Of a stretch of DNA of 64,000 nucleotides, positions 22,546 to 54,798 are shown piece by piece; position 1 is the first letter of the stretch, and each line of letters starts with the position of its first letter. The notes below the pieces were generated by a model that was not told the origin of the DNA, did no database searches, and saw nothing but the letters and a program-made list of their open reading frames with translations. The position numbers were made by a program, and so were the translations under genes. The DNA lies in contig CAWJQC010000007.1 of assembly GCA_963844965.1 (NCBI GenBank), forward strand, positions 64,001 to 128,000, written 5' to 3'. This DNA is from an uncultured bacterium. Lineage in GTDB: Bacteria > Patescibacteriota > Minisyncoccia > UBA6257 > 2-01-FULL-56-20.

Positions 22546-22644
22546 TTTTACATTTTGAGGGAGATGGAGCGGTTGGAAATATCTAAATGTAAAGGATAGG
22601 TTTCTTTAGACAGTGATTCGACGGCTTTTTGCCGTTTTTTTTCG

Positions 22645-23427
22645 TTAAGCCGCAATCTTCTCGGCAAACACGGACGGCGGCATCTTGAGGGCGGAGTGGA
22701 TCCGCGTGTGGTTGTACTGCCACAAGGTGCTGTAGATCTCCGCCACGAGCTCGCCGAAGGTCCCGAACCGGTTGGGATCACCGAGGTCAATCTTGAACTT
22801 GTCATAGAACGATTCCTGGTAGCCGTTTTCCCATGGGGCACCGGGCCGCGACCGCGAGATCGTGATGCCACAGTCCCCCAGTGTATCGGTGAACGCTCGT
22901 GCCTTGTACTCGCTGCCGTTGTCCGAATGGAAGATGACCGGATGCGGATGGTGGAAAAGCGCGTTGGCCAGGGTCTGTATCGTGAGGGGCGATCCTTTCC
23001 GCAACGCCACATGGACGCCCATCAATCGTCTCGTGAAAAGATCGAGTATCGTGGACACGTACACTTTCTTGCCGCGATACAGGAACTCCGTGAAATCGGT
23101 TGCCCAGACGTGGTTCGCGTACGAGGGCATGATGGCAAGTAAGAGGTTCGGAAAGGCCCGCGATGCCTTTGATTTCCGGTATTTCCTGCCTCGCCTCCGG
23201 TACGGCCTTATGCCGAAGATTCGCATGACGCGCTGCGCTCGCGGACGGCTCACGCCCAGAGCTTGTCCCAAGCGCCGGGAACCGTATGCCGGATGGCGCT
23301 GCAATTCTTCTTCCATGCGGATCTTGAGCGCCCAATCTTTCTTGTCCTGCCGTGATACGTAGTAGAGCGATGCCCGCGAGACGCCCATGGCCCGCGCCAT
23401 GGCGGACTTGTTCCGCTTTTCCGTCAA
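22645..23427 (-). CDS. IS3-family transposase OrfB (DDE integrase, rve domain)
   Basis: HSDNGSEYKARAF...PGAPWENGYQESFY rve-type DDE motif. Confidence 0.9.
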   Translation of the reverse strand: MTEKRNKSAMARAMGVSRASLYYVSRQDKKDWALKIRMEEELQRHPAYGSRRLGQALGVSRPRAQRVMRIFGIRPYRRRGRKYRKSKASRAFPNLLLAIMPSYANHVWATDFTEFLYRGKKVYVSTILDLFTRRLMGVHVALRKGSPLTIQTLANALFHHPHPVIFHSDNGSEYKARAFTDTLGDCGITISRSRPGAPWENGYQESFYDKFKIDLGDPNRFGTFGELVAEIYSTLWQYNHTRIHSALKMPPSVFAEKIAA

Positions 23428-23687
23428 TTCTTTTTTTGGGCCTGGGAGAGCTTCACGGTGAGCTCGCCCACCACTTCAAACAGCTCCCTGTTCTGCTTCT
23501 GGAGACGGCTGAACTCGCCCCAGGAAGGGACGCCCGATGCTCCTGCGCCTAGCCAATTGTAGATGGTGGACTCGTGCAAACCGTGGTCCTTCGCAGCCTG
23601 CGCTACGGGGACTCCTTCTTCCTTCACCCGGCGGAGGATGTCCGCCTTCACTTCCTTCGCAATCCGATGCCCTTTTTTGTTGCTCAT
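23424..23687 (-). CDS. IS3-family transposase OrfA (HTH)
   Basis: HTH segment VPVAQAAKDHGLHESTIYNWL. The ORF ends at an A AAA AAG slippery site that overlaps the start of orfB. Confidence 0.85.
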   Translation of the reverse strand: MSNKKGHRIAKEVKADILRRVKEEGVPVAQAAKDHGLHESTIYNWLGAGASGVPSWGEFSRLQKQNRELFEVVGELTVKLSQAQKKN

Positions 23688-23741
23688 GACACAATGGTAG
23701 TTTGTTTCGACCTTTGTGTCTAAATTATCCTATCCGGGTCA

Positions 23742-23773
23742 ACCTTTGTGTCTAAATTATCCTATCCGGGTCA
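23742..23773. repeat. 32-bp tandem duplication of the IS3 left terminal repeat
   Basis: CCTTTGTGTCTAAATTATCCTATCCGGGTCA occurs twice in tandem at 23711-23741 and 23743-23773. Confidence 0.8.
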
Positions 23774-23953: not shown

Positions 23954-26650
23954 ATGTCGAAGTTGTATTTACAAGACATAGTTGAGGACATCCCGTTTGA
24001 TGATCTGCCCGCGAAATGGCAGGACTTTGACTTCGGCAGGTTTTCTTCCGATAAAACACTATTTGGCTTCCAGCAAAATGGCTTACGGAACGCTCTGAAA
24101 GCGCTCTGGCTTTTTTATAAAGATAGGAAGGGAAACAAAATAGAGCTTTATGAACAATATAAGGCAAATGGCTTGGGCGCGGATTTTGATTATGATTTGA
24201 CGCGAGAAAGAAAAGCCGCTGACCATCTTTTGGAATTTGATACGGATTATCCGAAAACAGACGGCAAAATTGCTTTTGCCCACTTCTTAAACCGCATGAG
24301 CTTTTGGATGGCTACGGGCTCTGGAAAGACGCTGATTATCGTAAAACTCATTGATATGCTCGGCGCTTTAATGAGGCAAAAAGAGATTCCTCAAAACGAT
24401 ATTCTGTTCTTGGCTCATAGGGACGACCTTTTGGAACAATTCAAAAATCATGTGGATCAATTCAATAGCTTCAATTTTGAAACAAGAATCAACTTCAAGA
24501 GCTTGAAAGATTATGAGAGCGTCAAGCGCGAGAACGCTCTGCCATTTGCAAAAAACGAGATAACGGTATTCTACTACCGCTCGGATTTAATATCAGACGA
24601 GCACAAAGAAAAAATTGTCAATTTCAAAAATTATGATAACGGCGGCAAGTGGTATGTTCTTCTCGATGAGGCGCACAAAGGCGATAGAGAGGACAGCAAA
24701 AGACAGATTCTATATTCAATCCTTTCAAGAAGCGGCTTTCTGTTCAATTTTTCCGCTACCTTTACCGATCCGCGGGATTACGCAACCTGTGCCTTTAATT
24801 TCAATCTTTCAAAATTCATTGAGGATGGTTACGGCAAGCATATTTATGTATCAAGCGCGGAAGTAACGGCTTTCCGCGATCAAGACGACTTCTCAAAAAT
24901 TACGAAGCAGAAAATCGTTTTGAAAACGCTGATACTGCTTACATATATCAATAAGTATTTTGAGAAGGTTCGGAAACAGGATAAAAAGCTGTATCATCGC
25001 CCACTCCTTCTTACTCTCGTCAATTCCGTTGATACGAAAGATGCGGACTTAAAGCTGTTCTTTTCCGAACTGGAAAAGATAGCCAAAAATGAAATAAGAG
25101 GCGACTTGATTGAAAAAGCCAAAGAGGAACTCATAAAAGAATTTGAAGAAAATCCGCAATATGAATTTGAGGGCATAAATGTAGAGATTGATAAGGCCTC
25201 GCTCAAAAAAATCTGCTATAAGGATATTTTGAAGCAGATTTTCAACGCAAAATCTTCTGGTAATATCGAGGTTTTGAAAATTCCGAATAACAGAAACGAA
25301 ATAATCTTTAAGCTGCAAACTTCTGAAAAACCATTCGGGCTGATTAAGATCGGGGATATTTCGGGATGGCTTAAGGAAACGCTTGAGGGTTATGAAATAA
25401 TCGAGAGCTTTGAGAATGAAAGCGTATTTAAGCGGATCAACCACGATGACTCCGAAATTAACATTCTGATGGGCTCCCGTGCCTTTTACGAGGGCTGGGA
25501 CTCAAACAGGCCGAACATTCTCTTATTCGTAAATATCGGCATCGGAAGCGACGCAAAGAAGTTTGTCCTGCAATCCGTTGGCCGAGGCGTAAGAATTGAA
25601 CCGCAAAAGAATAAACGGAAAAGAATTTTGGAATTGCACAACGCAAAAGAAATAAAGACAGAGCTATTTAATAAAATCCGAAGCAATATACAAGCGCTTG
25701 AGAGCTTGTTCGTATTCGGAACAAACGCCGATAATCTGAAGGAAATAATCAAGGCGCTGAAAGAAGAAAAACAAGAGCAAGATTTAGGTGCCGAATTTAT
25801 TATAAATAAAGATGCTGAAAAACGGCTGTTGCTTATACCTACTTACCGAGAATCGGAAAAGATATTTGCCGAAGAAAAAGAGCCGCAGAAATACGGAATC
25901 AGCCGAGAGGACTTGGCACTCGCAAAATCAATGTTCAGCTATCTTGGCGATAAAGTAACTCTGGCAAAATTTGAGTGTGAAGTAAGGGTTATTAAAAAGA
26001 CAGCCGAGAGTTTTGAAACAGCCGAGCAATACTTTGACCTTAACGAGGAGAGGTCAATTTCCGAGCCAGATTTGCTGGTTGATAGGATACTGGACTACTT
26101 CAGCGTCAGGGATAAAGAATTTGATAAATTCAAAAAACTGGAAAACGAGATCGTCCACTTCAAGCGGATAAGGTTTAATGACGGCGAGAAGTTTGAAGAA
26201 ATAAAACAGAAAATCGGCAAAATAAAGGAGTATCCAGAAAGACAGCGAGAACTGGATAAACAATACGGAAAAATATCGCGGGAAGAATTTGCGAGAAAGC
26301 AGGCGAGTTTGTTTGACGCGCAGACCTTTGAATACAAGAGCAAAAAGCTAAAAATCAAATATATCCAAAACCATTACTACATTCCTCTGATTATTTCAGA
26401 AAATGAAAAAGTTGATTATCTCAACCACATTATTGATGTTGAAAGCGAAGTCCGTTTCATAGAACAATTGGAAGAATACCTACAGCAGGACGACAATGTA
26501 TTCAAACAATTTGATTGGTGGATGTTCTCAAAGCTCGATCAAACGCTGGACGAAGTTCATGTGCCGTATTACAGCCCAAAAGAAAACAATATGGCAAGGT
26601 TTAAGCCCGACTTTATCTTCTGGCTGCAAAAGGTGACCCGGATAGGATAA
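23954..26650 (+). CDS. SF2 helicase / Type III restriction Res-like protein (DEAH box), C-terminally truncated by IS3 copy B
   Basis: Motif I MATGSGKT, motif II LLDEAHKG, and motif VI QSVGRGVR. The C-terminus ...FKPDFIFWLQK runs 17 nt into the IS terminal repeat and stops (KVTRIG*), as if the PD-(D/E)xK nuclease motif were cut off. Confidence 0.7.
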   Translation: MSKLYLQDIVEDIPFDDLPAKWQDFDFGRFSSDKTLFGFQQNGLRNALKALWLFYKDRKGNKIELYEQYKANGLGADFDYDLTRERKAADHLLEFDTDYPKTDGKIAFAHFLNRMSFWMATGSGKTLIIVKLIDMLGALMRQKEIPQNDILFLAHRDDLLEQFKNHVDQFNSFNFETRINFKSLKDYESVKRENALPFAKNEITVFYYRSDLISDEHKEKIVNFKNYDNGGKWYVLLDEAHKGDREDSKRQILYSILSRSGFLFNFSATFTDPRDYATCAFNFNLSKFIEDGYGKHIYVSSAEVTAFRDQDDFSKITKQKIVLKTLILLTYINKYFEKVRKQDKKLYHRPLLLTLVNSVDTKDADLKLFFSELEKIAKNEIRGDLIEKAKEELIKEFEENPQYEFEGINVEIDKASLKKICYKDILKQIFNAKSSGNIEVLKIPNNRNEIIFKLQTSEKPFGLIKIGDISGWLKETLEGYEIIESFENESVFKRINHDDSEINILMGSRAFYEGWDSNRPNILLFVNIGIGSDAKKFVLQSVGRGVRIEPQKNKRKRILELHNAKEIKTELFNKIRSNIQALESLFVFGTNADNLKEIIKALKEEKQEQDLGAEFIINKDAEKRLLLIPTYRESEKIFAEEKEPQKYGISREDLALAKSMFSYLGDKVTLAKFECEVRVIKKTAESFETAEQYFDLNEERSISEPDLLVDRILDYFSVRDKEFDKFKKLENEIVHFKRIRFNDGEKFEEIKQKIGKIKEYPERQRELDKQYGKISREEFARKQASLFDAQTFEYKSKKLKIKYIQNHYYIPLIISENEKVDYLNHIIDVESEVRFIEQLEEYLQQDDNVFKQFDWWMFSKLDQTLDEVHVPYYSPKENNMARFKPDFIFWLQKVTRIG

Positions 26651-26687
26651 TTTAGACACAAAGGTCGAAACAAACTACCATTGTGTC

Positions 26688-26951
26688 ATGAGCAACAAAA
26701 AAGGGCATCGGATTGCGAAGGAAGTGAAGGCGGACATCCTCCGCCGGGTGAAGGAAGAAGGAGTCCCCGTAGCGCAGGCTGCGAAGGACCACGGTTTGCA
26801 CGAGTCCACCATCTACAATTGGCTAGGCGCAGGAGCATCGGGCGTCCCTTCCTGGGGCGAGTTCAGCCGTCTCCAGAAGCAGAACAGGGAGCTGTTTGAA
26901 GTGGTGGGCGAGCTCACCGTGAAGCTCTCCCAGGCCCAAAAAAAGAATTGA
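26688..26951 (+). CDS. IS3-family transposase OrfA (HTH)
   Basis: Identical to the product of 23424-23687. Confidence 0.85.
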   Translation: MSNKKGHRIAKEVKADILRRVKEEGVPVAQAAKDHGLHESTIYNWLGAGASGVPSWGEFSRLQKQNRELFEVVGELTVKLSQAQKKN

Positions 26952-27730
26952 CGGAAAAGCGGAACAAGTCCGCCATGGCGCGGGCCATGGGCGTCTCGCG
27001 GGCATCGCTCTACTACGTATCACGGCAGGACAAGAAAGATTGGGCGCTCAAGATCCGCATGGAAGAAGAATTGCAGCGCCATCCGGCATACGGTTCCCGG
27101 CGCTTGGGACAAGCTCTGGGCGTGAGCCGTCCGCGAGCGCAGCGCGTCATGCGAATCTTCGGCATAAGGCCGTACCGGAGGCGAGGCAGGAAATACCGGA
27201 AATCAAAGGCATCGCGGGCCTTTCCGAACCTCTTACTTGCCATCATGCCCTCGTACGCGAACCACGTCTGGGCAACCGATTTCACGGAGTTCCTGTATCG
27301 CGGCAAGAAAGTGTACGTGTCCACGATACTCGATCTTTTCACGAGACGATTGATGGGCGTCCATGTGGCGTTGCGGAAAGGATCGCCCCTCACGATACAG
27401 ACCCTGGCCAACGCGCTTTTCCACCATCCGCATCCGGTCATCTTCCATTCGGACAACGGCAGCGAGTACAAGGCACGAGCGTTCACCGATACACTGGGGG
27501 ACTGTGGCATCACGATCTCGCGGTCGCGGCCCGGTGCCCCATGGGAAAACGGCTACCAGGAATCGTTCTATGACAAGTTCAAGATTGACCTCGGTGATCC
27601 CAACCGGTTCGGGACCTTCGGCGAGCTCGTGGCGGAGATCTACAGCACCTTGTGGCAGTACAACCACACGCGGATCCACTCCGCCCTCAAGATGCCGCCG
27701 TCCGTGTTTGCCGAGAAGATTGCGGCTTAA
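26948..27730 (+). CDS. IS3-family transposase OrfB (DDE)
   Basis: Identical to the product of 22645-23427. Probably expressed as an OrfAB fusion through a -1 frameshift. Confidence 0.9.
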   Translation: MTEKRNKSAMARAMGVSRASLYYVSRQDKKDWALKIRMEEELQRHPAYGSRRLGQALGVSRPRAQRVMRIFGIRPYRRRGRKYRKSKASRAFPNLLLAIMPSYANHVWATDFTEFLYRGKKVYVSTILDLFTRRLMGVHVALRKGSPLTIQTLANALFHHPHPVIFHSDNGSEYKARAFTDTLGDCGITISRSRPGAPWENGYQESFYDKFKIDLGDPNRFGTFGELVAEIYSTLWQYNHTRIHSALKMPPSVFAEKIAA

Positions 27731-27861
27731 CGAAAAAAAACGGCAAAAAGCCGTCGAATCACTGTCTAAAGAAACCTATCCTTTACATCGGGCAAAAAGT
27801 TAGAGTTTACAATGCGAAAACCGTTTGATGCGGTCCTCGAATTGGCTACTTGTCCAACTGG

Positions 27862-49420: not shown

Positions 49421-49580
49421 TTGCCAGAAATTCGCGCCGCCATAAAAATTTCCGCGGGTGTTTGCCTGCTGGTAGGGCGGTTATGTTTTCGGATTTTTTC
49501 CGATTTCGTTTCCGCCGAGGGCGGATTAGCTTCCGATAGAAACCTACGGCGAGCCGTCGGGTAATTCAAGCGTCCTCACC

Positions 49581-50367
49581 GCCCGCCGGTTAACAATTGT
49601 TAACCGGCGGGCGGGAAGAGCAGGGTGTAATGAGGCGCGTAGCTCACCTGGCTGCTAATGGCGCGGCGCGATTTTCTCGCGCTAATTTCCGGGATGCGAA
49701 CCATTTCAGGATTTTCGGCAGATCGTTTTTGCTGATAACAAAAGCCCTCCCGATGCGGGTTGCCGGAATTCTCTTTTTGTCTATATTTTTGAAAACCGCG
49801 ACGCGGCTGATGCCCAAAACTTTCGCAAGTTCCGCCGTGGATATGAATTCCTTGTTGATCTCGTCCGCCATTCTCCGCATTTTCATTTTTCCACCTTAGC
49901 ACAATATCCGCGGGTTAACAATTGTTAACTTTGTCGGAATGGTAATCGGCCATAGTTAAAATCATAGTCAAAATGGTGGCTCATCTAGTGATTTGCCTCT
50001 GGTTGGGGGCTCTGAGTATCAACCAGTACCGGTTAACAATTGTTAACTTTGTCAGAATAGTGATTTGACATAGTTAGAACAATTAGAATGGTGACCTGCC
50101 ATAGTCGCATAGTCACGTGGCTCGTCCTTGGTGGTGGACTTTGGGCATCAATCGGCGCGGGTTAACAATTGTTAACTTTGTCAGAATGGTAATCTGTAGC
50201 CGGCGGGATCTCTGGCGGAGTCCTCCGCCAGGGGCGTGGTATCCCGGACATCAACTGGCGCCGGTTAACAATTGTTAACCGAGCAACAGAAAACAAAACC
50301 GAGAAAAAATCCCCCCAGTCATTTTTTCATCGTTTTTCCGTCCGCAGGTTAACAATTGTTAACCTGC
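49581..50367. repeat. Array of six perfect 16-bp palindromes GTTAACAATTGTTAAC. Copies 2-5 sit within ~100-130-bp degenerate tandem repeat units.
   Basis: Palindrome cores at 49589, 49914, 50032, 50161, 50264 and 50348. Three are extended to 22-32-bp perfect palindromes (for example GCCCGCCGGTTAACAATTGTTAACCGGCGGGC at 49581-49612). Copies 2-4 share a TTTGTCRGAATRGTRATY extension, and repeat units share ...ATCAAYNNNNCSGGTTAAC. Confidence 0.85.
49644..49886 (-). CDS. Excisionase-family / MerR-like helix-turn-helix DNA-binding protein
   Basis: ISTAELAKVLGISRVAVFKNIDKKRIPATRIGRAFVISKNDL matches the excisionase-family HTH pattern. Confidence 0.7.
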   Translation of the reverse strand: MKMRRMADEINKEFISTAELAKVLGISRVAVFKNIDKKRIPATRIGRAFVISKNDLPKILKWFASRKLARENRAAPLAAR

Positions 50368-50484
50368 ACTGTGCGCTGCCTGTTGACTATTACTGACTAT
50401 TAAAAAATGCGGGTAGATAAAGCGAGCACGGTATGGAGTTGGGGCCGCTTGACGATGCGCGGTCGCGGTGTTAATTTCATAAAT

Positions 50485-50967
50485 ATGAACGAGGAAAAGA
50501 GGGGGAAATATTGGAAGTTCGCGGTCGGGCTCGTCGCGCTCGTTCTTTTGGCGTTAGGGGCTTTTGTCGCGGCGAGGTATTATGGGCGACTGGAAGAGCA
50601 GCGGGCGGCGAACGACGCCACACAGTCGCTCCAAAAAGAAATCGCGGACTACAACGCGCGTCTCGCCTTGGACACCTACGGCGGCAAAACGCCGCAGGAA
50701 ACGCTGCAGCTCTACGTTGACGCCGTGGAGAAAGGCAACTACGTCCTCGCGAGCAAGTATTTCATAGGGGACAATCAGGAGAAGGAATTAAGCAGTTTAC
50801 AGAACAGTCCGAAGGAAAACACACAAAATGTTTTGCGTCTGCTTAAAACCGATCTTCAATCCGAAGGAAGTTTTTCTGAGAATAAAGATACGTATGGTAT
50901 AGAGAAGCCGCTTTTTGTTGATTTCAGACTTTATCCCAACGGCATCTGGAAGATTATAGAAATTTAG
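50485..50967 (+). CDS. Membrane-anchored hypothetical protein
   Basis: MNEEKRGKYWKFAVGLVALVLLALGAFVAA transmembrane anchor. Lies downstream of the palindrome array and is followed by a weak hairpin terminator at 51075-51096. Confidence 0.5.
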   Translation: MNEEKRGKYWKFAVGLVALVLLALGAFVAARYYGRLEEQRAANDATQSLQKEIADYNARLALDTYGGKTPQETLQLYVDAVEKGNYVLASKYFIGDNQEKELSSLQNSPKENTQNVLRLLKTDLQSEGSFSENKDTYGIEKPLFVDFRLYPNGIWKIIEI

Positions 50968-51100
50968 TAGTTCTTGTGGCTCTTGCCTGCCGGCAGGCAG
51001 GCAATAGGGTTTGGCCAACAGTCGTCTGTCATCTATCTGTCCGTCACAGCATCGCTTGGCACTGGCTTGAAAAAATCCGCCGAGAAGCGGTTTTTATTGA

Positions 51101-51130
51101 CTGGAAAAATTCGCGAAAAAGTGGGACAAT
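51101..51130 (+). promoter_or_regulatory. 30-bp motif CTGGAAAAATTCGCGAAAAAGTGGGACAAT immediately upstream of the RhuM-Fic gene (copy 1)
   Basis: 29 of 30 nt identical to the motif at 52340-52369. Contains the palindromic core TTCGCGAA. Confidence 0.6.
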
Positions 51131-51141
51131 AAGACAAAACC

Positions 51142-52107
51142 ATGAAAAAGAAGGCGATAAAAAATGAAATTGTAATATATCAGGCCAAAAACGGAGCGAT
51201 AGAATTTCGTAAGGACTTGCGCGCAGAAACGATTTGGGCAACGCAGGCGCAGATCGTTAAACTTTTTGATATTGATCAGTCAGTAGCTTCGCGGCACATA
51301 AGCAATATCTTCAAGGACGGCGAGGTTGACAAAAAAAGCAATATGCAAAAAATGCATATTGCAAATTCGGACAAACCAGTTGTTCTTTATTCACTCGATA
51401 TGATTTTAGCAGTCGGATATAGGACGAACTCGGGACGGGCGATAACTTTCCGCCAGTGGGCAACCAAGACCTTGCGGGCGCATATTATAGATAGCTATAC
51501 CATCAACCGTGCTCGCATTGCCCAGAATTACGAAGTTTTTCTGAAAGCGGTGGAAGATGTAAAAAAACTTCTTCCAACGGGCGGAGCAGTGGATATTGTC
51601 AATGTATTGGAATTGATCAAGACATTCGCGAGTACCTGGGTATCGCTGGATGCCTACGACAAATCCGCTCTGCCAAAGAGCGGCGCTACAAAAAAACAGG
51701 TTAAACTGACGGCGCAGGATTTCTCGGCCGCGCTCCTTGAACTTAGGCGGGAATTAACGGCCAAAAAAGAAGCCAGTGAACTTTTCGCGGTTGAACACCA
51801 GAAAGGAAACGTGACCGGTATAGTCGGCAACGTACTCCAATCCTTCGGCGGCAAAGACCTCTATCCAAGTGTTGAAGAAAAAGCGGCCCACCTTTTGTAT
51901 TTTATGGTTAAGAATCATCCGTTCACTGACGGCAACAAACGAGCAGGCGCATTTTCGTTCGTATGGTTTTTGAGAAAAGCCGGATTGCTGAATACCGCGC
52001 GCCTTACTCCCGAAGCCTTGACGGCGCTCACTCTGCTCGTTGCGGAAAGCAGTCCGAAAGACAAAGAGCGGGTAGTCGGATTGGCTCTTCTGCTTTTAAA
52101 AAAGTAG
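51142..52107 (+). CDS. RhuM-family N-terminal domain fused to a Fic/Doc domain
   Basis: N-terminal IVIYQAKNGAIEFRKD...WATQAQIVKLFD (RhuM-like). C-terminal HPFTDGNKRAG (Fic/Doc motif HxFx(D/E)GNKR). Confidence 0.7.
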   Translation: MKKKAIKNEIVIYQAKNGAIEFRKDLRAETIWATQAQIVKLFDIDQSVASRHISNIFKDGEVDKKSNMQKMHIANSDKPVVLYSLDMILAVGYRTNSGRAITFRQWATKTLRAHIIDSYTINRARIAQNYEVFLKAVEDVKKLLPTGGAVDIVNVLELIKTFASTWVSLDAYDKSALPKSGATKKQVKLTAQDFSAALLELRRELTAKKEASELFAVEHQKGNVTGIVGNVLQSFGGKDLYPSVEEKAAHLLYFMVKNHPFTDGNKRAGAFSFVWFLRKAGLLNTARLTPEALTALTLLVAESSPKDKERVVGLALLLLKK

Positions 52108-52339
52108 TTGCGACGAACCATCGAACAGTCCCACCCGTGCTCATCGGGGTTTAGTATTGGGGTGCGAAGCAGGGTGGTGAATGCGGCCTTTTTATATCCG
52201 GAGGATACCGCGTTCTACTGCTCTGGCCCGGCTAGGTTAATTGCCCCGACCTTGCGTCGGGGCTACTACCCATGAGCCCCATGGTGAAATTGCGACCAAA
52301 AATCGTGGCCGTAGGCCTTCGCAATTTCTACTATCGGGG

Positions 52340-52369
52340 CTGGAAAAATTCGCGAAAAAGTGGGAGAAT
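52340..52369 (+). promoter_or_regulatory. 30-bp motif CTGGAAAAATTCGCGAAAAAGTGGGAGAAT immediately upstream of the restriction endonuclease gene (copy 2)
   Basis: See copy 1. It ends 6 nt before the ATG at 52376. Confidence 0.6.
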
Positions 52370-52375
52370 GGGGAT

Positions 52376-53062
52376 ATGTCACAAGAGCAAATTAGGAAAA
52401 AAAATGGAGGCGCGGCAATCAAGGCTTTAGTCTCGGCAGGAGAAGAGATTTTGTCTAATTTGCAGCGAGTTATTGCTGTTGGCGGTTTCGATTATCGCAC
52501 TTTTGGTACGGCCATCGAGAAACACCTTAGCAATATTATTGTCAAAATTTTTAAAGAGAGAGGTTTTATTAGAAATAATCGGGATTACATTGTTGCACCA
52601 CATAAAAATTATTTTCCTGATTTTGAGTTAAAAACTGCGCCGCCCATTGCGATAGAGTTTAAATCCGGCAATAAAAGTCAGAACAGAAAGGGCAAATGGG
52701 TTACCGTTAAAAACAGCGAGAACGATATGGGCACGTTGAACGAGTGGCCCAAAAAGATTAAAAGATTTGGGGGAGAAAATATATACTATGTTTTTGTAAT
52801 CTATAATTTTAATAAAAAAACGAAACAGATCTTGAGTATAGAAATAGCCCCATTTTATAAATTTTTAGGACTTAGCAAGGGAAGCGTTCTTAAATATAGA
52901 GAAAAAGACGGAAATTTGCGGCCAAAAAATTTCGACGCCGAACCGCCGATAAAAAACCTGAGTCAGTTTGAGCAGTTATTTAATAAAACTATAATTTACA
53001 GATCAAAACGAATAATCAAAAAACACAAGCTAATTATTAAAAAAGCATCCTCGGGTTCTTGA
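52376..53062 (+). CDS. PD-(D/E)xK Type II restriction endonuclease candidate
   Basis: FPDFELKTAPPIAIEFKSG fits the PD...ExK pattern. Convergent with the methyltransferase and overlaps its 3' end by 26 bp. The start was chosen at the Met directly downstream of the conserved motif. Confidence 0.55.
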   Translation: MSQEQIRKKNGGAAIKALVSAGEEILSNLQRVIAVGGFDYRTFGTAIEKHLSNIIVKIFKERGFIRNNRDYIVAPHKNYFPDFELKTAPPIAIEFKSGNKSQNRKGKWVTVKNSENDMGTLNEWPKKIKRFGGENIYYVFVIYNFNKKTKQILSIEIAPFYKFLGLSKGSVLKYREKDGNLRPKNFDAEPPIKNLSQFEQLFNKTIIYRSKRIIKKHKLIIKKASSGS

Positions 53063-54617
53063 CGTTCACAGGGCTAGCTTTTTTATTAATTTGTTTTCTG
53101 GCAATAGCGAATGCGGGGTTATCTATCGGATAGATTCCTTCATCTTCGGATATCGTTAAATTTCTCAGATATTTTGATGCAACTTCTGGGGTATCGCCAT
53201 TGTATTTATAGCCGTTACTTGATCTATAATTAACTTTTTTGAGCTTGTCCGCAACAATTTTTTTATATTTTGGATCTATGTCAATACCGATATAGTTTCG
53301 GCCGAGTCGCTTTGCGGCCAATGCGGTTGTTCCTGCCCCAACGAAAGGATCTAGTACCACGTCGCCCTCGTCCGTCGTCATCAGAATCAAGCGTTCAAGT
53401 AGCGGCTCCGGAAGTTGGCACGGATGGGCGTCTCTGCGCGCATTATGTCTTATGCGGTGAATATCGGCCCAAACATCGCTTAGAAGTGTTCCGTGCGGGT
53501 GTATCTGACTTTTCTTTCCTCCGTAATCTTTGATCATTTTGCCACAACTCCGGCATTTCTTATGTGGCGCCCTAAGTTCGTGGAATTTAAATCCTTTGGG
53601 AAGTTTTGTATAGAATAGTATTCCGTAGTGTGCGGGTAATAAGGTTTTGCCTAAAGGCGTACTCATTGAATCCCACGCGATCCAGTGTTTAAAGACCGCA
53701 ATCTTATTGAGATGATTAGCATAATAAATTAACCACTTTGGTATATTGTGGACCAAAATAGAGCCCGTTGGTTTAGTTATTCTAACCATCTCGGTTAGCC
53801 ATTGCTCACACCACTTTATATAATCTTCCGCCGCTTTTTTGTCTTTATAGCTGCCGTATTTCTTATTTAGGTTAAATGGAGGGTCCGCGAAGGTCATATC
53901 AATTGAGTCGGCGGGAAGTTTTCTCATTTCCTCAATCGAATCTCCGCATAAAATTTCGTTGAGCGGTATCTTTTTGTATTGCTTATATTCTGTTTTTGTT
54001 TCCGGAAAGGTGACAGTAGAGGGAGTTTCTTCGCTGATAACATCGAGTACTATTCCTTGTATGGAAATATCCCGGCCATTTCGAAAGATTAGAGGCTCCA
54101 TGTTTTTGTTCGCCGGTTGTAAACGGATTCGGCCCCGTTCTTTATAGAATTTTTTAAGCGTTGCTTCGTGATTATCTATAAGTGCCACCACCTTTTGTCC
54201 ATTTTCGGCAACGCCCTGTTGTTTAACCAAGACGAGATCGCCATTGTTTATATTTTCGTCAACCATACTGTTTCCGACCACGCGTAGAGCGAAGAATTCT
54301 CCGGAGCGGGGAAGTTTGCTTTGCGGAACGGCAATGGTTTCTTTTTCCTCAACAGCTTCAATCGGCTGGCCGGCAGCTATGATGCCTAACAGGGGGATGC
54401 TAACCATTTTTTCCGATTCAGAAATTTGAATGCCGCGTCGCTTGTTCTCTTCTATTCGCAGGTGGCCGCCTTCCTGGAGCTTCTGAAGGTGTTCATGAAT
54501 GGTTCCGACTGCTCGCTTAAAATGTTTAGCTGTCTCCGGGATAGAAGGAGAGTAGCCATGTTTTTTTGAGTACGTTTTAAAAAAATCCAGAACCTCCTTT
54601 TGTTTTTTAGTGATCAT
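53037..54617 (-). CDS. LexA-like repressor (HTH plus S24 peptidase domain) fused to an N4/N6 DNA methyltransferase
   Basis: N-terminal ~200 aa: KQKEVLDFFK...HL, IPLLGIIAAGQPIEA, GNSMVDENINNGDLVLV and ATLKKF, the Ser/Lys dyad context of LexA. C-terminal ~320 aa: DPPFN, VLDPFVGAGTT and GIDIDPKY methyltransferase motifs. Confidence 0.75.
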   Translation of the reverse strand: MITKKQKEVLDFFKTYSKKHGYSPSIPETAKHFKRAVGTIHEHLQKLQEGGHLRIEENKRRGIQISESEKMVSIPLLGIIAAGQPIEAVEEKETIAVPQSKLPRSGEFFALRVVGNSMVDENINNGDLVLVKQQGVAENGQKVVALIDNHEATLKKFYKERGRIRLQPANKNMEPLIFRNGRDISIQGIVLDVISEETPSTVTFPETKTEYKQYKKIPLNEILCGDSIEEMRKLPADSIDMTFADPPFNLNKKYGSYKDKKAAEDYIKWCEQWLTEMVRITKPTGSILVHNIPKWLIYYANHLNKIAVFKHWIAWDSMSTPLGKTLLPAHYGILFYTKLPKGFKFHELRAPHKKCRSCGKMIKDYGGKKSQIHPHGTLLSDVWADIHRIRHNARRDAHPCQLPEPLLERLILMTTDEGDVVLDPFVGAGTTALAAKRLGRNYIGIDIDPKYKKIVADKLKKVNYRSSNGYKYNGDTPEVASKYLRNLTISEDEGIYPIDNPAFAIARKQINKKASPVNVKNPRMLF

Positions 54618-54798
54618 ATTTCCATTATATCATACCGACCCGAAAGAAAACCGAAAGTTATCCACAGGTTGGTTTTCGTTGATACGCGCGCTTGACGCCG
54701 CTCGTGTCGTTTGCTACCTTGTAGCGAATAGTAAATAGCCCATAACTCAATAACGAGTTCTGCCGCACTGGAGTAGCTTGCGGCGGAACATTTAATAT

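What the first reader, a model, noticed from the sequence alone, without database searches (positions are those of the whole stretch)
51101..52369. Identical ~30-bp motif precedes both the RhuM-Fic gene and the restriction endonuclease
CTGGAAAAATTCGCGAAAAAGTGGGASAAT, with a TTCGCGAA palindromic core, ends 11 nt and 6 nt before the two start codons (29/30 identity). A shared promoter/operator cassette implies co-regulation of a Fic/Doc toxin-like gene and the REase. The HTH protein or the LexA domain of the methyltransferase are candidate regulators.
Basis: seen in the sequence. Interest (0 to 1): 0.55.

Follow-up and report, generated by a model that had tools for sequence, protein, structure and literature searches.

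The report
Shared portable promoter before defence genes
A 30-base promoter-like sequence is repeated in front of a Doc-type toxin gene and a restriction enzyme gene, and the same sequence precedes unrelated restriction-modification genes in other uncultured bacteria.

Summary
CTGGAAAAATTCGCGAAAAAGTGGGASAAT occurs at 51101-51130 and 52340-52369 (29/30 identical), ending 11 and 6 nt before the two ATGs, and nowhere else in the window. It reads as a sigma70-type extended -10 promoter: TGGAAA, 17 nt, TG-n-GASAAT. The REase ATG lies exactly where leaderless genes of this window start.

The closest relative of the RhuM-Doc gene (L018) carries the same block: motif, gene, structured spacer, motif. 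There it is fused to a non-homologous REase, and homology ends 2 nt after copy 2. The same 29-mer also precedes two other unrelated R-M operons in unrelated contigs (L023, L024). Homologues of this REase and of RhuM-Doc elsewhere lack it.

The TTCGCGAA palindrome is broken in 3 of the 6 copies seen. LexA-methyltransferase loci have different operator-like repeats of their own, and the HTH gene sits among its own palindromes.

Best reading: a propagated (mobile) promoter. It flanks an inserted RhuM-Doc cassette and supplies a promoter to an REase gene that in at least one relative (L040) has no room for a promoter of its own. Co-expression is plausible. The proposed regulators are not supported. 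The letter-perfect spacer remains unexplained. Moderate interest.

The parts
51077..51098 (+). Short hairpin CCGCCGAGAAGCGG plus T-run (terminator-like, reads in both directions) directly upstream of motif copy 1
   Evidence: The hairpin plus motif is 86% identical over 49 nt to the terminator plus motif of L023.
51101..51130 (+). Motif copy 1. It has a -35-like TGGAAA (51102-51107), a 17-nt A-tract-phased spacer, TG at -15/-14 (51122-51123) and a -10 GACAAT (51125-51130). It ends 11 nt before the ATG.
51142..52107 (+). RhuM-Fic/Doc gene (321 aa). It has an N-terminal RhuM-type wHTH and a C-terminal Doc-type motif, HPFTDGNKR.
   Evidence: Pfam PF13310 + PF02661; TIGR01550 DOC_P1; PDB 9vzc death-on-curing protein; protein sequence. 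It is 83% identical to the L018 protein, with a mosaic pattern.
51232..51440 (+). Segment of the RhuM wHTH region that is only 48-63% identical in nucleotides to L018, while its flanks are 90-98% identical (a recombinational replacement)
52108..52339 (+). 232-nt non-coding, strongly structured spacer. Both ends are conserved in L018 and the middle hairpins vary. The long terminal hairpin at 52275-52341 abuts copy 2.
   Evidence: z = -2.6 here and -5.2 in L018. No Rfam family and no tRNA. The small ORF 52108-52275 is not conserved in L018 (read directly from the sequences).
52340..52369 (+). Motif copy 2. It has TGGAAA (52341-52346), TG (52361-52362) and a -10 GAGAAT (52364-52369). It ends 6 nt before the ATG, so the predicted transcription start is the A of the ATG (leaderless).
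   Evidence: The 6-nt distance is the modal distance for -10-like hexamers in this window. Homology with L018 ends at 52371. GC falls from 52% to 34% at this point.
52376..53062 (+). Putative type II restriction endonuclease (228 aa) with an invariant PD...ExK motif
   Evidence: Always convergent with a LexA-S24-N6_N4 methyltransferase.
53037..54617 (-). LexA_DNA_bind - Peptidase_S24 - N6_N4 methyltransferase fusion (526 aa). It is convergent with the REase and overlaps its 3' end by 26 nt.
   Evidence: homologues.
54618..54667 (-). The methyltransferase's own promoter: CTGTGGATAAC (54657-54667), direct repeat CTTTCGG-TTTT-CTTTCGG (54640-54657), TG-A-TATAAT (TATAAT at 54624-54629), then 6 nt and the ATG. 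It is unlike the 30-bp motif.

Best explanation
The 30-mer is a compact sigma70-type promoter with an extended -10: TGGAAA, 17 nt, TG-n-GA(G/C)AAT. It has been propagated as a discrete unit among mobile defence genes of Patescibacteria.

In this window it flanks, as a direct repeat, a 1.2-kb cassette made of the RhuM-Doc toxin-like gene and a structured 3' spacer. Copy 1 follows a terminator and starts the RhuM-Doc transcript with a leader of about 5 nt. Copy 2 starts a leaderless REase transcript at the A of ATG 52376.

In these LexA-methyltransferase R-M modules the methyltransferase has its own self-contained promoter. The REase gene in at least one relative has no room for a promoter of its own and takes whatever lies upstream. 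Copy 2 is that promoter here.

The duplication most likely arose in one of two ways. Either the RhuM-Doc cassette was placed between a resident copy of this promoter and the downstream gene (insertion with target duplication, or single-crossover integration at the 30-mer), or the cassette carries the promoter at both ends. The R-M module downstream was later exchanged, with the junction exactly at the 3' edge of copy 2.

The consequence is that the two 'killer' genes (Doc-type toxin and REase) are driven by the same signal, while the protective methyltransferase is controlled separately.

Shown: the sequence anatomy, its distribution, the junctions, and the lack of association with the proposed regulators. 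Inferred: promoter activity, transcription start sites, the direction and order of the insertion and replacement events, and co-expression.
For: Promoter anatomy:
- In all copies T and G sit at -15/-14, and A and T sit at hexamer positions 2 and 6. The one variable position in the 3' half of the motif is hexamer position 3.
- In this window, -10-like hexamers peak exactly 6 nt before start codons (7 of 46 genes; the 6-8 nt bin holds 13 against a background of about 4-5). The REase and the LexA-methyltransferase both fit this pattern.
- Copy 1 and the L023 copy directly follow intrinsic terminators, which marks the start of a new transcription unit.

Not generic:
- Two copies in 64 kb, no weaker copies found by profile search, and sub-motifs at chance frequency.

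Portable block:
- L018 (RhuM-Doc 83% identical in protein, about 95% in DNA outside two replaced patches) has motif, gene, spacer and motif, followed by a non-homologous 274-aa gene.
- That gene's family is always convergent with a LexA-S24-methyltransferase, and L018's last 80 nt encode the matching methyltransferase C-terminus.
- Homology ends 2 nt after copy 2, where GC drops from 52% to 34%.

Same 29-mer before other R-M operons:
- L023: N4/N6 methyltransferase plus MvaI/BcnI-type REase. L024: C5 methyltransferase plus a 344-aa gene plus Vsr.
- No other DNA or protein similarity between these contigs and the window near the motif.

REase genes of these modules do not carry this motif elsewhere:
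- REase homologues at 70-77% identity, and homologues of the 274-aa family, have unrelated upstream DNA. In L040 the REase starts 3 nt after the dnaK stop.

Precedents in the literature:
- Homologous promoters upstream of non-homologous genes (PMC3488235).
- R-M-linked insertions flanked by long direct repeats (PMC2853133).
- RhuM and Doc domains fused and embedded in R-M loci (PMC3710099).
Against: - No transcription data exist; the promoter and start sites are inferred from sequence alone.
- The -35 is weak (4/6) and the -10 is GAGAAT/GACAAT, not TATAAT.
- Sigma70 recognition does not explain why the 14-nt spacer is almost invariant across four unrelated contigs, nor why similarity has sharp edges on both sides. 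That pattern points to an additional constraint: a bound protein, DNA curvature from three phased A-tracts, or a recombination function.
- Only four loci carry the motif. The public scans needed exact 19-22-mers, and the metagenome scan missed L018 although L018 matches the pattern, so the collection is incomplete.
- The left edge of the L018 block is cut off by the contig end, and no orthologous 'empty site' was found. The insertion scenario and its direction are therefore not demonstrated.
- The REase could also be read through from the RhuM-Doc transcript, because the spacer has no U-tract terminator.
Confidence: 0.55

Rival explanations
1. The motif is a promoter plus operator of a dedicated, trans-acting factor (a specialised sigma factor, or a wHTH or response-regulator-type protein that binds the phased repeats GGAAAAAT / CGAAAAAG / GGGAGAAT). 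This factor would define a 'defence regulon' in these bacteria. The whole 29 nt would be conserved by selection for binding, not by common descent.
For: - The spacer is invariant, and the block has sharp edges, in contigs that share nothing else.
- All six copies lie in the sense orientation before defence genes of five non-homologous families.
- The repeat architecture (units of about 8 nt spaced 11 and 9-10 nt apart, abutting the -10) is the same as the operator-like repeats in the LexA-methyltransferase promoters.
Against: - No candidate regulator gene is shared by the four loci.
- Only one or two copies are seen per stretch of DNA held.
- The RhuM wHTH, the obvious local candidate, is the most diverged segment between the window and L018 while the motif is unchanged. 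RhuM-Doc is also absent from the held parts of L023 and L024.
- RhuM-Doc homologues at 72-74% identity have no motif.
Confidence: 0.22
2. The 30-mer is primarily a recombination site, or the junction of a cassette-exchange system, at which defence cassettes are integrated and swapped (att-like, or a hotspot for homologous exchange). Its promoter-like look would be secondary.
For: - Direct repeats flank a single-gene cassette.
- The same block is joined to different downstream genes, with the break exactly at the motif edge and a compositional step there.
- A 67-nt imperfect hairpin abuts copy 2.
- A large serine recombinase lies 1.5 kb upstream in L024.
Against: - No recombinase gene lies next to the motif in the window. 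The nearest transposases are IS3 copies 23 kb away.
- There is no inverted-repeat symmetry typical of tyrosine or serine recombinase core sites. The only palindrome (8 bp) is broken in half of the copies.
- L023 and L024 have a single copy and no second site within the DNA held.
- Other RhuM-Doc insertions have no flanking repeats.
- There is no integron integrase and no attC features.
Confidence: 0.15
3. One reading: TTCGCGAA is a palindromic operator bound by the LexA-type domain of the methyltransferase, or by the neighbouring 80-aa HTH protein, which co-regulates the toxin and the REase.
For: - Both motif-bearing RhuM-Doc loci (window and L018) are followed by an R-M module with a LexA-S24-methyltransferase.
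- Methyltransferases with DNA-binding N-terminal regions that regulate R-M promoters are known, for example SsoII, EcoRII and MspI (from my own knowledge; one search shows only the titles of the SsoII, MspI and EcoRII papers in the reference list of PMC3874152).
Against: - The palindrome is not conserved (TTCGCGGAA in 3 of 6 copies).
- Six other LexA-methyltransferase loci lack the motif.
- L023 and L024 have the motif but no LexA-type methyltransferase.
- The window-type and L018-type methyltransferases are only about 39% identical and have different recognition helices. Each type has its own promoter repeats (CTTTCGG x2, CGTTCTA x2, TTGTCGGG x2), yet copy 2 is identical in both loci.
- The HTH_17 gene is surrounded by six copies of its own palindrome.
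Confidence: 0.05
4. The repeat is a chance match or an assembly artefact.
For: None beyond the fact that the source is a metagenome assembly.
Against: - None of 100 shuffles gave a match.
- A second assembly is identical.
- The same architecture appears in another sample, and the same 29-mer in two further contigs.
Confidence: 0.01

Closest known systems
Putative mobile promoters / promoter propagation (Matus-Garcia, Nijveen & van Passel 2012, PMC3488235)
   Same: [quoted passage not shown] The proposed role is to activate horizontally acquired genes.
   Different: Those families were defined as 50-100 nt at 80% identity or more. Here the conserved block is only 29-30 nt (46-49 nt for some pairs) and nearly letter-perfect. 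Every case seen lies in front of R-M or toxin genes of Patescibacteria, and there is no link to an IS, MITE or riboswitch.
Insertion with long target duplication, and allelic substitution of R-M units (Furuta, Abe & Kobayashi 2010, PMC2853133)
   Same: A selfish defence-type gene unit is flanked by direct repeats of about 30 bp or more with no transposase or integrase. Neighbouring R-M genes are replaced by unrelated ones at a fixed junction.
   Different: The flanked unit is a RhuM-Doc gene, not an R-M pair. The repeat is at the 30-bp lower limit of that study, whose criterion asks for more than 30 bp. The same repeat recurs at other loci, so it is not a random target. No empty site is available for comparison.
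Control of type II R-M expression by C proteins or by DNA-binding methyltransferases (review PMC3874152)
   Same: These are separate promoters for convergent R and M genes, with leaderless transcripts. The methyltransferase here carries a DNA-binding domain and operator-like repeats in its own promoter.
   Different: There is no C gene and no C-box. The REase promoter (the motif) is not shared by homologous R-M modules and does not resemble the methyltransferase's own repeats.
RhuM / Doc genes embedded in R-M loci as 'multi-level defence' (Anantharaman et al. 2013, PMC3710099)
   Same: A RhuM-Doc fusion gene lies next to R-M genes.
   Different: That work describes gene neighbourhoods, mostly type I systems with PrrC. 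It does not describe a shared, duplicated promoter or a cassette bounded by it.
phd/doc type II toxin-antitoxin module
   Same: The C-terminal domain has the Doc-type catalytic motif HxFxDGNKR.
   Different: There is no separate Phd antitoxin gene. The Doc domain is fused to a RhuM wHTH region, and autoregulation at the motif is not supported (the HTH segment diverged while the motif did not).

Membership tests
Sigma70-type extended -10 promoter | -10 hexamer with A at position 2 and T at position 6 | tested here: met
   GACAAT or GAGAAT in all full copies, and GAAAAT in L018 copy 1. A2 and T6 are invariant, and only hexamer position 3 varies.
Sigma70-type extended -10 promoter | TG at -15/-14, one base upstream of the hexamer | tested here: met
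   GTGgGASAAT: T and G are invariant in all copies.
Sigma70-type extended -10 promoter | -35 hexamer close to TTGACA at 16-18 nt | tested here: inconclusive
   TGGAAA at 17 nt scores 4/6, and TAGAAA in L018 copy 2 scores 3/6. The tool's consensus scan did not list the site. A weak -35 is tolerated by extended -10 promoters (established knowledge).
Sigma70-type extended -10 promoter | Position consistent with transcription starts of the genome | tested here: met
   The 6-nt distance to the ATG is the modal distance for -10-like hexamers in this window. Terminators lie directly upstream of copy 1 and of the L023 copy.
Sigma70-type extended -10 promoter | Mapped transcription start or promoter activity | not testable with these tools
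   No transcript data are available.
LexA/SOS-type operator | Conserved dyad-symmetric box | tested here: not met
   Only an 8-bp palindrome is present. It is at chance frequency and is broken in 3 of 6 copies.
LexA/SOS-type operator | Co-occurrence of the site with the LexA-type protein | tested here: not met
   Six LexA-methyltransferase loci lack the motif, and two motif loci lack a LexA-type gene.
C-protein-controlled R-M (C-box) | A small C gene upstream of, or co-transcribed with, the REase, with palindromic C-boxes | tested here: not met
   There is no ORF between the motif and the REase (a 6-nt gap), no HTH_3-type C gene in the module, and no C-box-like dyads.
Putative mobile promoter (PMC3488235) | Homologous sequence upstream of non-homologous CDSs | tested here: met
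   Five non-homologous downstream genes.
Putative mobile promoter (PMC3488235) | Length 50-100 nt at 80% identity or more | tested here: not met
   The common block is 29-30 nt. It reaches 46 nt (L023 versus L024) and 49 nt (window copy 1 versus L023) for some pairs.
Insertion with long target duplication (PMC2853133) | Direct repeats longer than 30 bp flanking the insert, with no mobility gene | tested here: inconclusive
   The direct repeat is 30 bp at 29/30, exactly at that study's 30-bp limit, which asks for more than 30 bp. There is no mobility gene inside the 1239-bp unit.
Insertion with long target duplication (PMC2853133) | An empty site with a single repeat copy at the orthologous locus of a relative | tested here: inconclusive
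   Single copies exist (L023, L024) but at non-orthologous loci. No orthologous locus was retrievable.
Insertion with long target duplication (PMC2853133) | The insert contains R and M genes | tested here: not met
   The insert holds RhuM-Doc only.
Integron gene cassette | IntI integrase and attI nearby; attC with R''/L''/L'/R' sites at the cassette's 3' end | tested here: not met
   No tyrosine recombinase was found in the ORFs scanned on either side of the motif. The hairpin at 52275-52341 shows no GTTRRRY/RYYYAAC boundary (read).
phd/doc toxin-antitoxin | Doc catalytic motif HxFx(D/N)(A/G)NKR | tested here: met
   HPFTDGNKR; TIGR01550 at E = 9e-8.
phd/doc toxin-antitoxin | A separate upstream Phd-type antitoxin gene | tested here: not met
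   Only 11 nt separate the motif from the ATG, with a terminator upstream.

The most novel reading that the evidence does not exclude
The 29-mer is a dedicated 'docking' signal for defence genes in Patescibacteria: a fully conserved promoter/operator, or a recombination junction. Unrelated R-M and toxin cassettes would be plugged in, swapped and expressed at this site. That would amount to an integron-like expression platform with no recognisable integrase, possibly read by a specialised transcription factor that places REases and Doc-type toxins in one regulon.
Probability: 0.2. Interest if true: 0.7.

Novelty: new variant of a known kind. Interest (0 to 1): 0.42.

Why it matters
Patescibacteria (CPR) are thought to rely heavily on restriction-modification for phage defence (from my own knowledge). 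How their mobile R-M and toxin genes get expressed after transfer is unknown.

A short, portable promoter would explain how REase genes that travel without a promoter become active. This one recurs in front of five unrelated defence genes, and here it brackets a Doc-type toxin cassette. It would also explain how a toxin and an REase come to be co-expressed while the methyltransferase is controlled separately.

If the letter-perfect conservation reflects a dedicated factor or a recombination function, the 29-mer would be a searchable marker for defence cassettes in CPR genomes.

The analysis also removes a tempting but unsupported idea, SOS/LexA-type control of the REase through TTCGCGAA. It points instead to a different candidate operator for the LexA-methyltransferase fusions.

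Tried and rejected
1. Generic promoter element. Rejected: only two copies in the window, sub-motifs at chance frequency, and no weak copies found by nhmmer profile in the window or in the held loci (L002-L045).

2. Coding sequence. The genome-wide 20-mer scan gave six hits with nothing in common beyond the 20-mer; they look like one reading frame (E-I-R-E-K-V-G by my own translation, gene models not checked) in unrelated bacteria. Viral scans hit only one conserved phage gene. All are chance matches. The two window copies are in different frames relative to their genes.

3. Conserved operator of this R-M family. Rejected: REase homologues at 70-77% identity have unrelated upstream DNA.

4. Motif tied to RhuM-Doc in general. 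Rejected: homologues at 72-74% identity (L019-L022, L035) lack both the motif and any flanking repeats.

5. Known RNA or tRNA-derived att site. No Rfam family and no tRNA or tmRNA was found.

6. Sigma54, sigma32, ECF, sigmaB and sigmaH consensus sequences were compared by eye. Spacings or key bases do not fit. This was not a formal test.

7. Recognition-site-in-promoter idea (TCGCGA or CGCG methylation sensing). Not general, because the four loci carry different R-M types and the palindrome varies. TTCGCGAA is not depleted in the window.

8. Shared synteny or a shared mobile element among motif loci. tblastx and blastp found no shared proteins other than generic methyltransferase similarity.

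9. Plasmid and phage databases. No match to terminator plus motif, or to spacer plus motif.

10. Exact-protein look-up of the REase found no record, so strain variants lacking the cassette could not be sought.

11. Small ORF in the spacer (52108-52275) as an antitoxin. It is not conserved in L018.
Full report
**1. The observation**

The 30-mer CTGGAAAAATTCGCGAAAAAGTGGGASAAT is present exactly where reported, at 51101-51130 and 52340-52369 on the + strand. The copies are 29/30 identical and differ only at position 27 (C versus G). No further match with up to 3 mismatches exists on either strand of the 64-kb window, and none of 100 dinucleotide shuffles produced a match. The bases just outside the 30-mer differ, so the repeat is sharply bounded.

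Copy 1 ends 11 nt before ATG 51142, the start of a 321-aa RhuM + Fic/Doc protein. Copy 2 ends 6 nt before ATG 52376. That ATG is the real start of the 228-aa protein, because homologues start with the same residues.

The 228-aa protein has no Pfam, NCBIfam or PDB sequence match. It is still credibly a restriction endonuclease. It has an invariant PD...E-x-K motif in 28 homologues. In every homologous locus examined it is convergent with a LexA_DNA_bind-Peptidase_S24-N6_N4 methyltransferase, as it is here (53037-54617).

An independent Logan contig is identical over 50676-52413, so the arrangement is not an assembly artefact.

**2. What the motif looks like**

Read as a promoter, it is TGGAAA (4/6 to TTGACA), then 17 nt, then TG-n-GA(G/C)AAT. 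This is an extended -10 promoter with T and G at -15/-14 and with the critical A and T of the hexamer.

Across the six copies I could collect, the variable positions are 1, 3, 16 and 27. Position 27 is the third base of the hexamer (my own knowledge: one of the less conserved -10 positions). TG, A-11 and T-7 never vary.

In this window, -10-like hexamers are enriched exactly 6 nt upstream of start codons. Seven of 46 genes with an upstream gap show this, and the 6-8 nt bin holds 13 against about 4-5 in other bins. Leaderless transcription is therefore common here. The REase (GAGAAT, 6 nt, ATG) and the methyltransferase (TATAAT, 6 nt, ATG) both follow this rule.

Copy 1 directly follows a terminator-like hairpin plus T-run. 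So does the L023 copy, and the two hairpin-plus-motif stretches are 86% identical over 49 nt.

The 8-bp palindrome TTCGCGAA is at chance frequency in the window. It is not conserved: three of the six copies read TTCGCGGAA.

The spacer is better described as three phased A-tract units: GGAAAAAT, CGAAAAAG and GGGAGAAT, starting 11 nt and then 9-10 nt apart.

**3. Where else it occurs**

A 20-mer scan of one genome per species found only six hits in unrelated bacteria that share nothing with the motif beyond the 20-mer. By my own translation these look like one reading frame (E-I-R-E-K-V-G), though I did not check gene models. Viral scans found only chance matches inside one phage gene family.

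REase homologues at 70-77% identity (L009, L011, L014 and others) always have the LexA-methyltransferase partner. They have unrelated upstream DNA and no RhuM-Doc gene. RhuM-Doc homologues at 72-74% identity sit as single genes between housekeeping genes, with no motif and no flanking repeats.

The closest RhuM-Doc gene is in L018, a 2.2-kb JGI contig. It has the same architecture:
- The contig starts inside copy 1.
- The gene follows, then a spacer of about 200 nt whose last 119 nt are 93% identical to the window.
- Copy 2 follows (CTAGAAAAATTCGCGAAAAAGTGGGAGAAT).
- Then comes a different, non-homologous 274-aa gene.

That gene's family is also always convergent with a LexA-S24-N6_N4 methyltransferase (L036, L039, L040). 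The last 80 nt of L018 encode the matching methyltransferase C-terminus. These methyltransferases are only about 39% identical to the window's.

Homology between the window and L018 stops 2 nt after copy 2. At that point GC falls from 52% to 34%.

- In L023 the 29-mer follows a terminator and precedes an N4/N6 methyltransferase plus an MvaI/BcnI-type REase.
- In L024 it precedes a C5 methyltransferase, a 344-aa gene and a Vsr endonuclease, with a large serine recombinase 1.5 kb upstream.

These contigs share no other DNA or protein similarity near the motif, either with the window or with each other. Their GC contents differ (42-44% against 49%). The alignment of five copies shows similarity confined to about 29 nt with sharp edges.

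The scan missed L018 even though L018 matches the pattern. The collection is therefore incomplete, and four loci is a lower bound.

**4. Testing the proposed regulators**

LexA domain:
- All seven LexA-methyltransferase promoters examined contain TGTGGATAAC (a DnaA-box-like 9-mer, in either orientation).
- Next to the -10, each also has a pair of 7-8 nt direct repeats at 11-nt spacing, and the repeat sequence is locus-specific: CTTTCGG in the window and L011, CGTTCTA in L009 and L014, TTGTCGGG or TTGTTAGGG in L040 and L036.
- The repeat sequence groups with the sequence of the predicted recognition helix.
- These repeats are the natural candidates for the LexA-type domain's operator, and nothing like them occurs in the 30-mer.
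- The same copy 2 stands before R-M modules of two different LexA-methyltransferase families. Six LexA-methyltransferase loci lack the motif, and two motif loci lack a LexA domain.

HTH protein: the 80-aa HTH_17/excisionase-family gene (49644-49886, minus strand) lies among six perfect copies of GTTAACAATTGTTAAC. No such gene was found in the ORFs scanned at L023 and L024.

RhuM wHTH, my own candidate: between the window and L018 the block is 90-98% identical in DNA. The wHTH segment 51232-51440 is the exception at 48-63%, and the middle of the spacer also differs. The motif is unchanged. This argues against a specific RhuM-motif pairing but does not exclude it.

**5. Best explanation**

The 30-mer is a compact promoter that has been propagated as a unit among mobile defence genes. 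Here it brackets a RhuM-Doc cassette.

In these R-M modules the methyltransferase has a self-contained, probably autoregulated promoter. The REase gene in at least one relative leaves no room for a promoter of its own: in L040 it starts 3 nt after the dnaK stop. Copy 2 supplies the REase promoter in the window and in L018.

The direct repeat fits one of two origins. The cassette may have been inserted between a resident copy of the promoter and its gene. Precedent for this exists in R-M-linked insertions with long direct repeats (PMC2853133). Alternatively, the cassette may carry the promoter at both ends. The downstream R-M module was later replaced at the motif's 3' edge.

The concept matches 'putative mobile promoters' (PMC3488235). 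The RhuM-Doc/R-M neighbourhood is itself known (PMC3710099).

The functional consequence is that the Doc-type toxin (motif HPFTDGNKR) and the REase are driven by the same signal.

**6. What remains unexplained**

Sigma70 contacts do not account for the nearly invariant 14-nt spacer, nor for the sharp boundaries of the block in contigs that share nothing else. Two rivals therefore stay open:
- A dedicated trans-acting factor that binds the phased repeats (a defence regulon).
- A recombination or junction function.

I found no shared regulator gene, no recombinase adjacent to the motif in the window, and no inverted-repeat symmetry. Both rivals rank below the promoter-propagation reading. They cannot be excluded without whole-genome scans and experiments.

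The structured 232-nt spacer is also unexplained. It folds with z = -2.6 here and -5.2 in L018, it has no Rfam family, and its internal hairpins vary.

**7. Verdict**

A shared promoter is likely. The palindromic operator and the LexA or HTH regulators are not supported.
- Novelty: a new variant of a known kind, namely a propagated promoter combined with a repeat-flanked selfish-gene insertion. Its unusual features are its short length, its exact conservation and its exclusive association with defence genes in Patescibacteria.
- Interest is moderate, at 0.42.

Noticed in passing
window 49571-50380: Six perfect copies of the 16-bp palindrome GTTAACAATTGTTAAC (0.01 expected by chance), at spacings of 325, 118, 129, 103 and 84 nt. 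Three of them are followed by a conserved stretch of about 33 nt (TTTGTCAGAATGGTAATC...). They surround the 80-aa HTH_17/excisionase-like gene (49644-49886, minus strand) and fill the gap up to the 186-aa gene. This could be an operator or iteron array, or an array of small transcription units. None of the 45 loci held at the time of that search (L001-L045) has the palindrome. Viral-contig hits are single occurrences.
   Followed up: partly
window 54618-54667 (- strand); L009 8317, L011 8308, L014 8372, L036 2538, L039 3601, L040 7360: Every LexA-S24-methyltransferase gene examined (7 of 7, from two REase families) has a perfect TGTGGATAAC (DnaA-box-like TTATCCACA) in its upstream region, in either orientation. 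Each also has a locus-specific pair of 7-8 nt direct repeats at 11-nt spacing abutting a TATAAT that lies 6 nt before the ATG. The repeat sequence groups with the recognition-helix sequence of the LexA-type domain. This is the likely autoregulatory operator of a methyltransferase fusion for which one full-text search turned up no description.
   Followed up: partly
window 52108-52339; L018 1015-1217: The spacer downstream of RhuM-Doc is non-coding and strongly structured, with conserved ends and variable internal hairpins. It includes a G-U to A-U change within a helix, read on the + strand. It has no Rfam match. It could be a 3'-UTR element, a small RNA or an insulator.
   Followed up: partly
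window 51232-51440: The wHTH segment of RhuM-Doc is only 48-63% identical in nucleotides to L018, inside a gene that is otherwise 90-98% identical. This looks like a recombinational swap of the DNA-binding segment.
   Followed up: partly
L011 5063-10961 and L040 1669-7288: Two different REase + LexA-methyltransferase modules (the 228-aa and 274-aa REase families) are both inserted in the hrcA-grpE-dnaK heat-shock region of different Patescibacteria. In L040 the REase starts 3 nt after the dnaK stop. This may be an insertion hotspot, or a case of borrowing the heat-shock promoter.
   Followed up: no
window 22587-23748 and 26627-27788: Two 1162-nt copies, 100% identical, of an IS3-family element (HTH_Tnp_1 + rve ORFs) lie in inverted orientation. 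They flank a 2.9-kb segment that encodes a 902-aa ResIII/SNF2-type helicase, giving a composite-transposon-like arrangement.
   Followed up: partly
window, upstream regions of 46 genes: -10-like hexamers peak exactly 6 nt before start codons (7 genes; 13 within 6-8 nt). Leaderless mRNAs are therefore common in this organism.
   Followed up: yes
window 53037-53062: The convergent REase and methyltransferase genes overlap by 26 nt at their 3' ends. The same tail-to-tail overlap is seen in the homologous loci. It leaves room for transcriptional interference or antisense control.
   Followed up: no
L039 3956-6851: Next to a LexA-methyltransferase R-M module lie a 380-aa protein with a DnaA C-terminal DNA-binding domain (PF08299) and a MORC/GHKL-type ATPase. 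This is of interest given the DnaA-box-like sequence in all these methyltransferase promoters.
   Followed up: no
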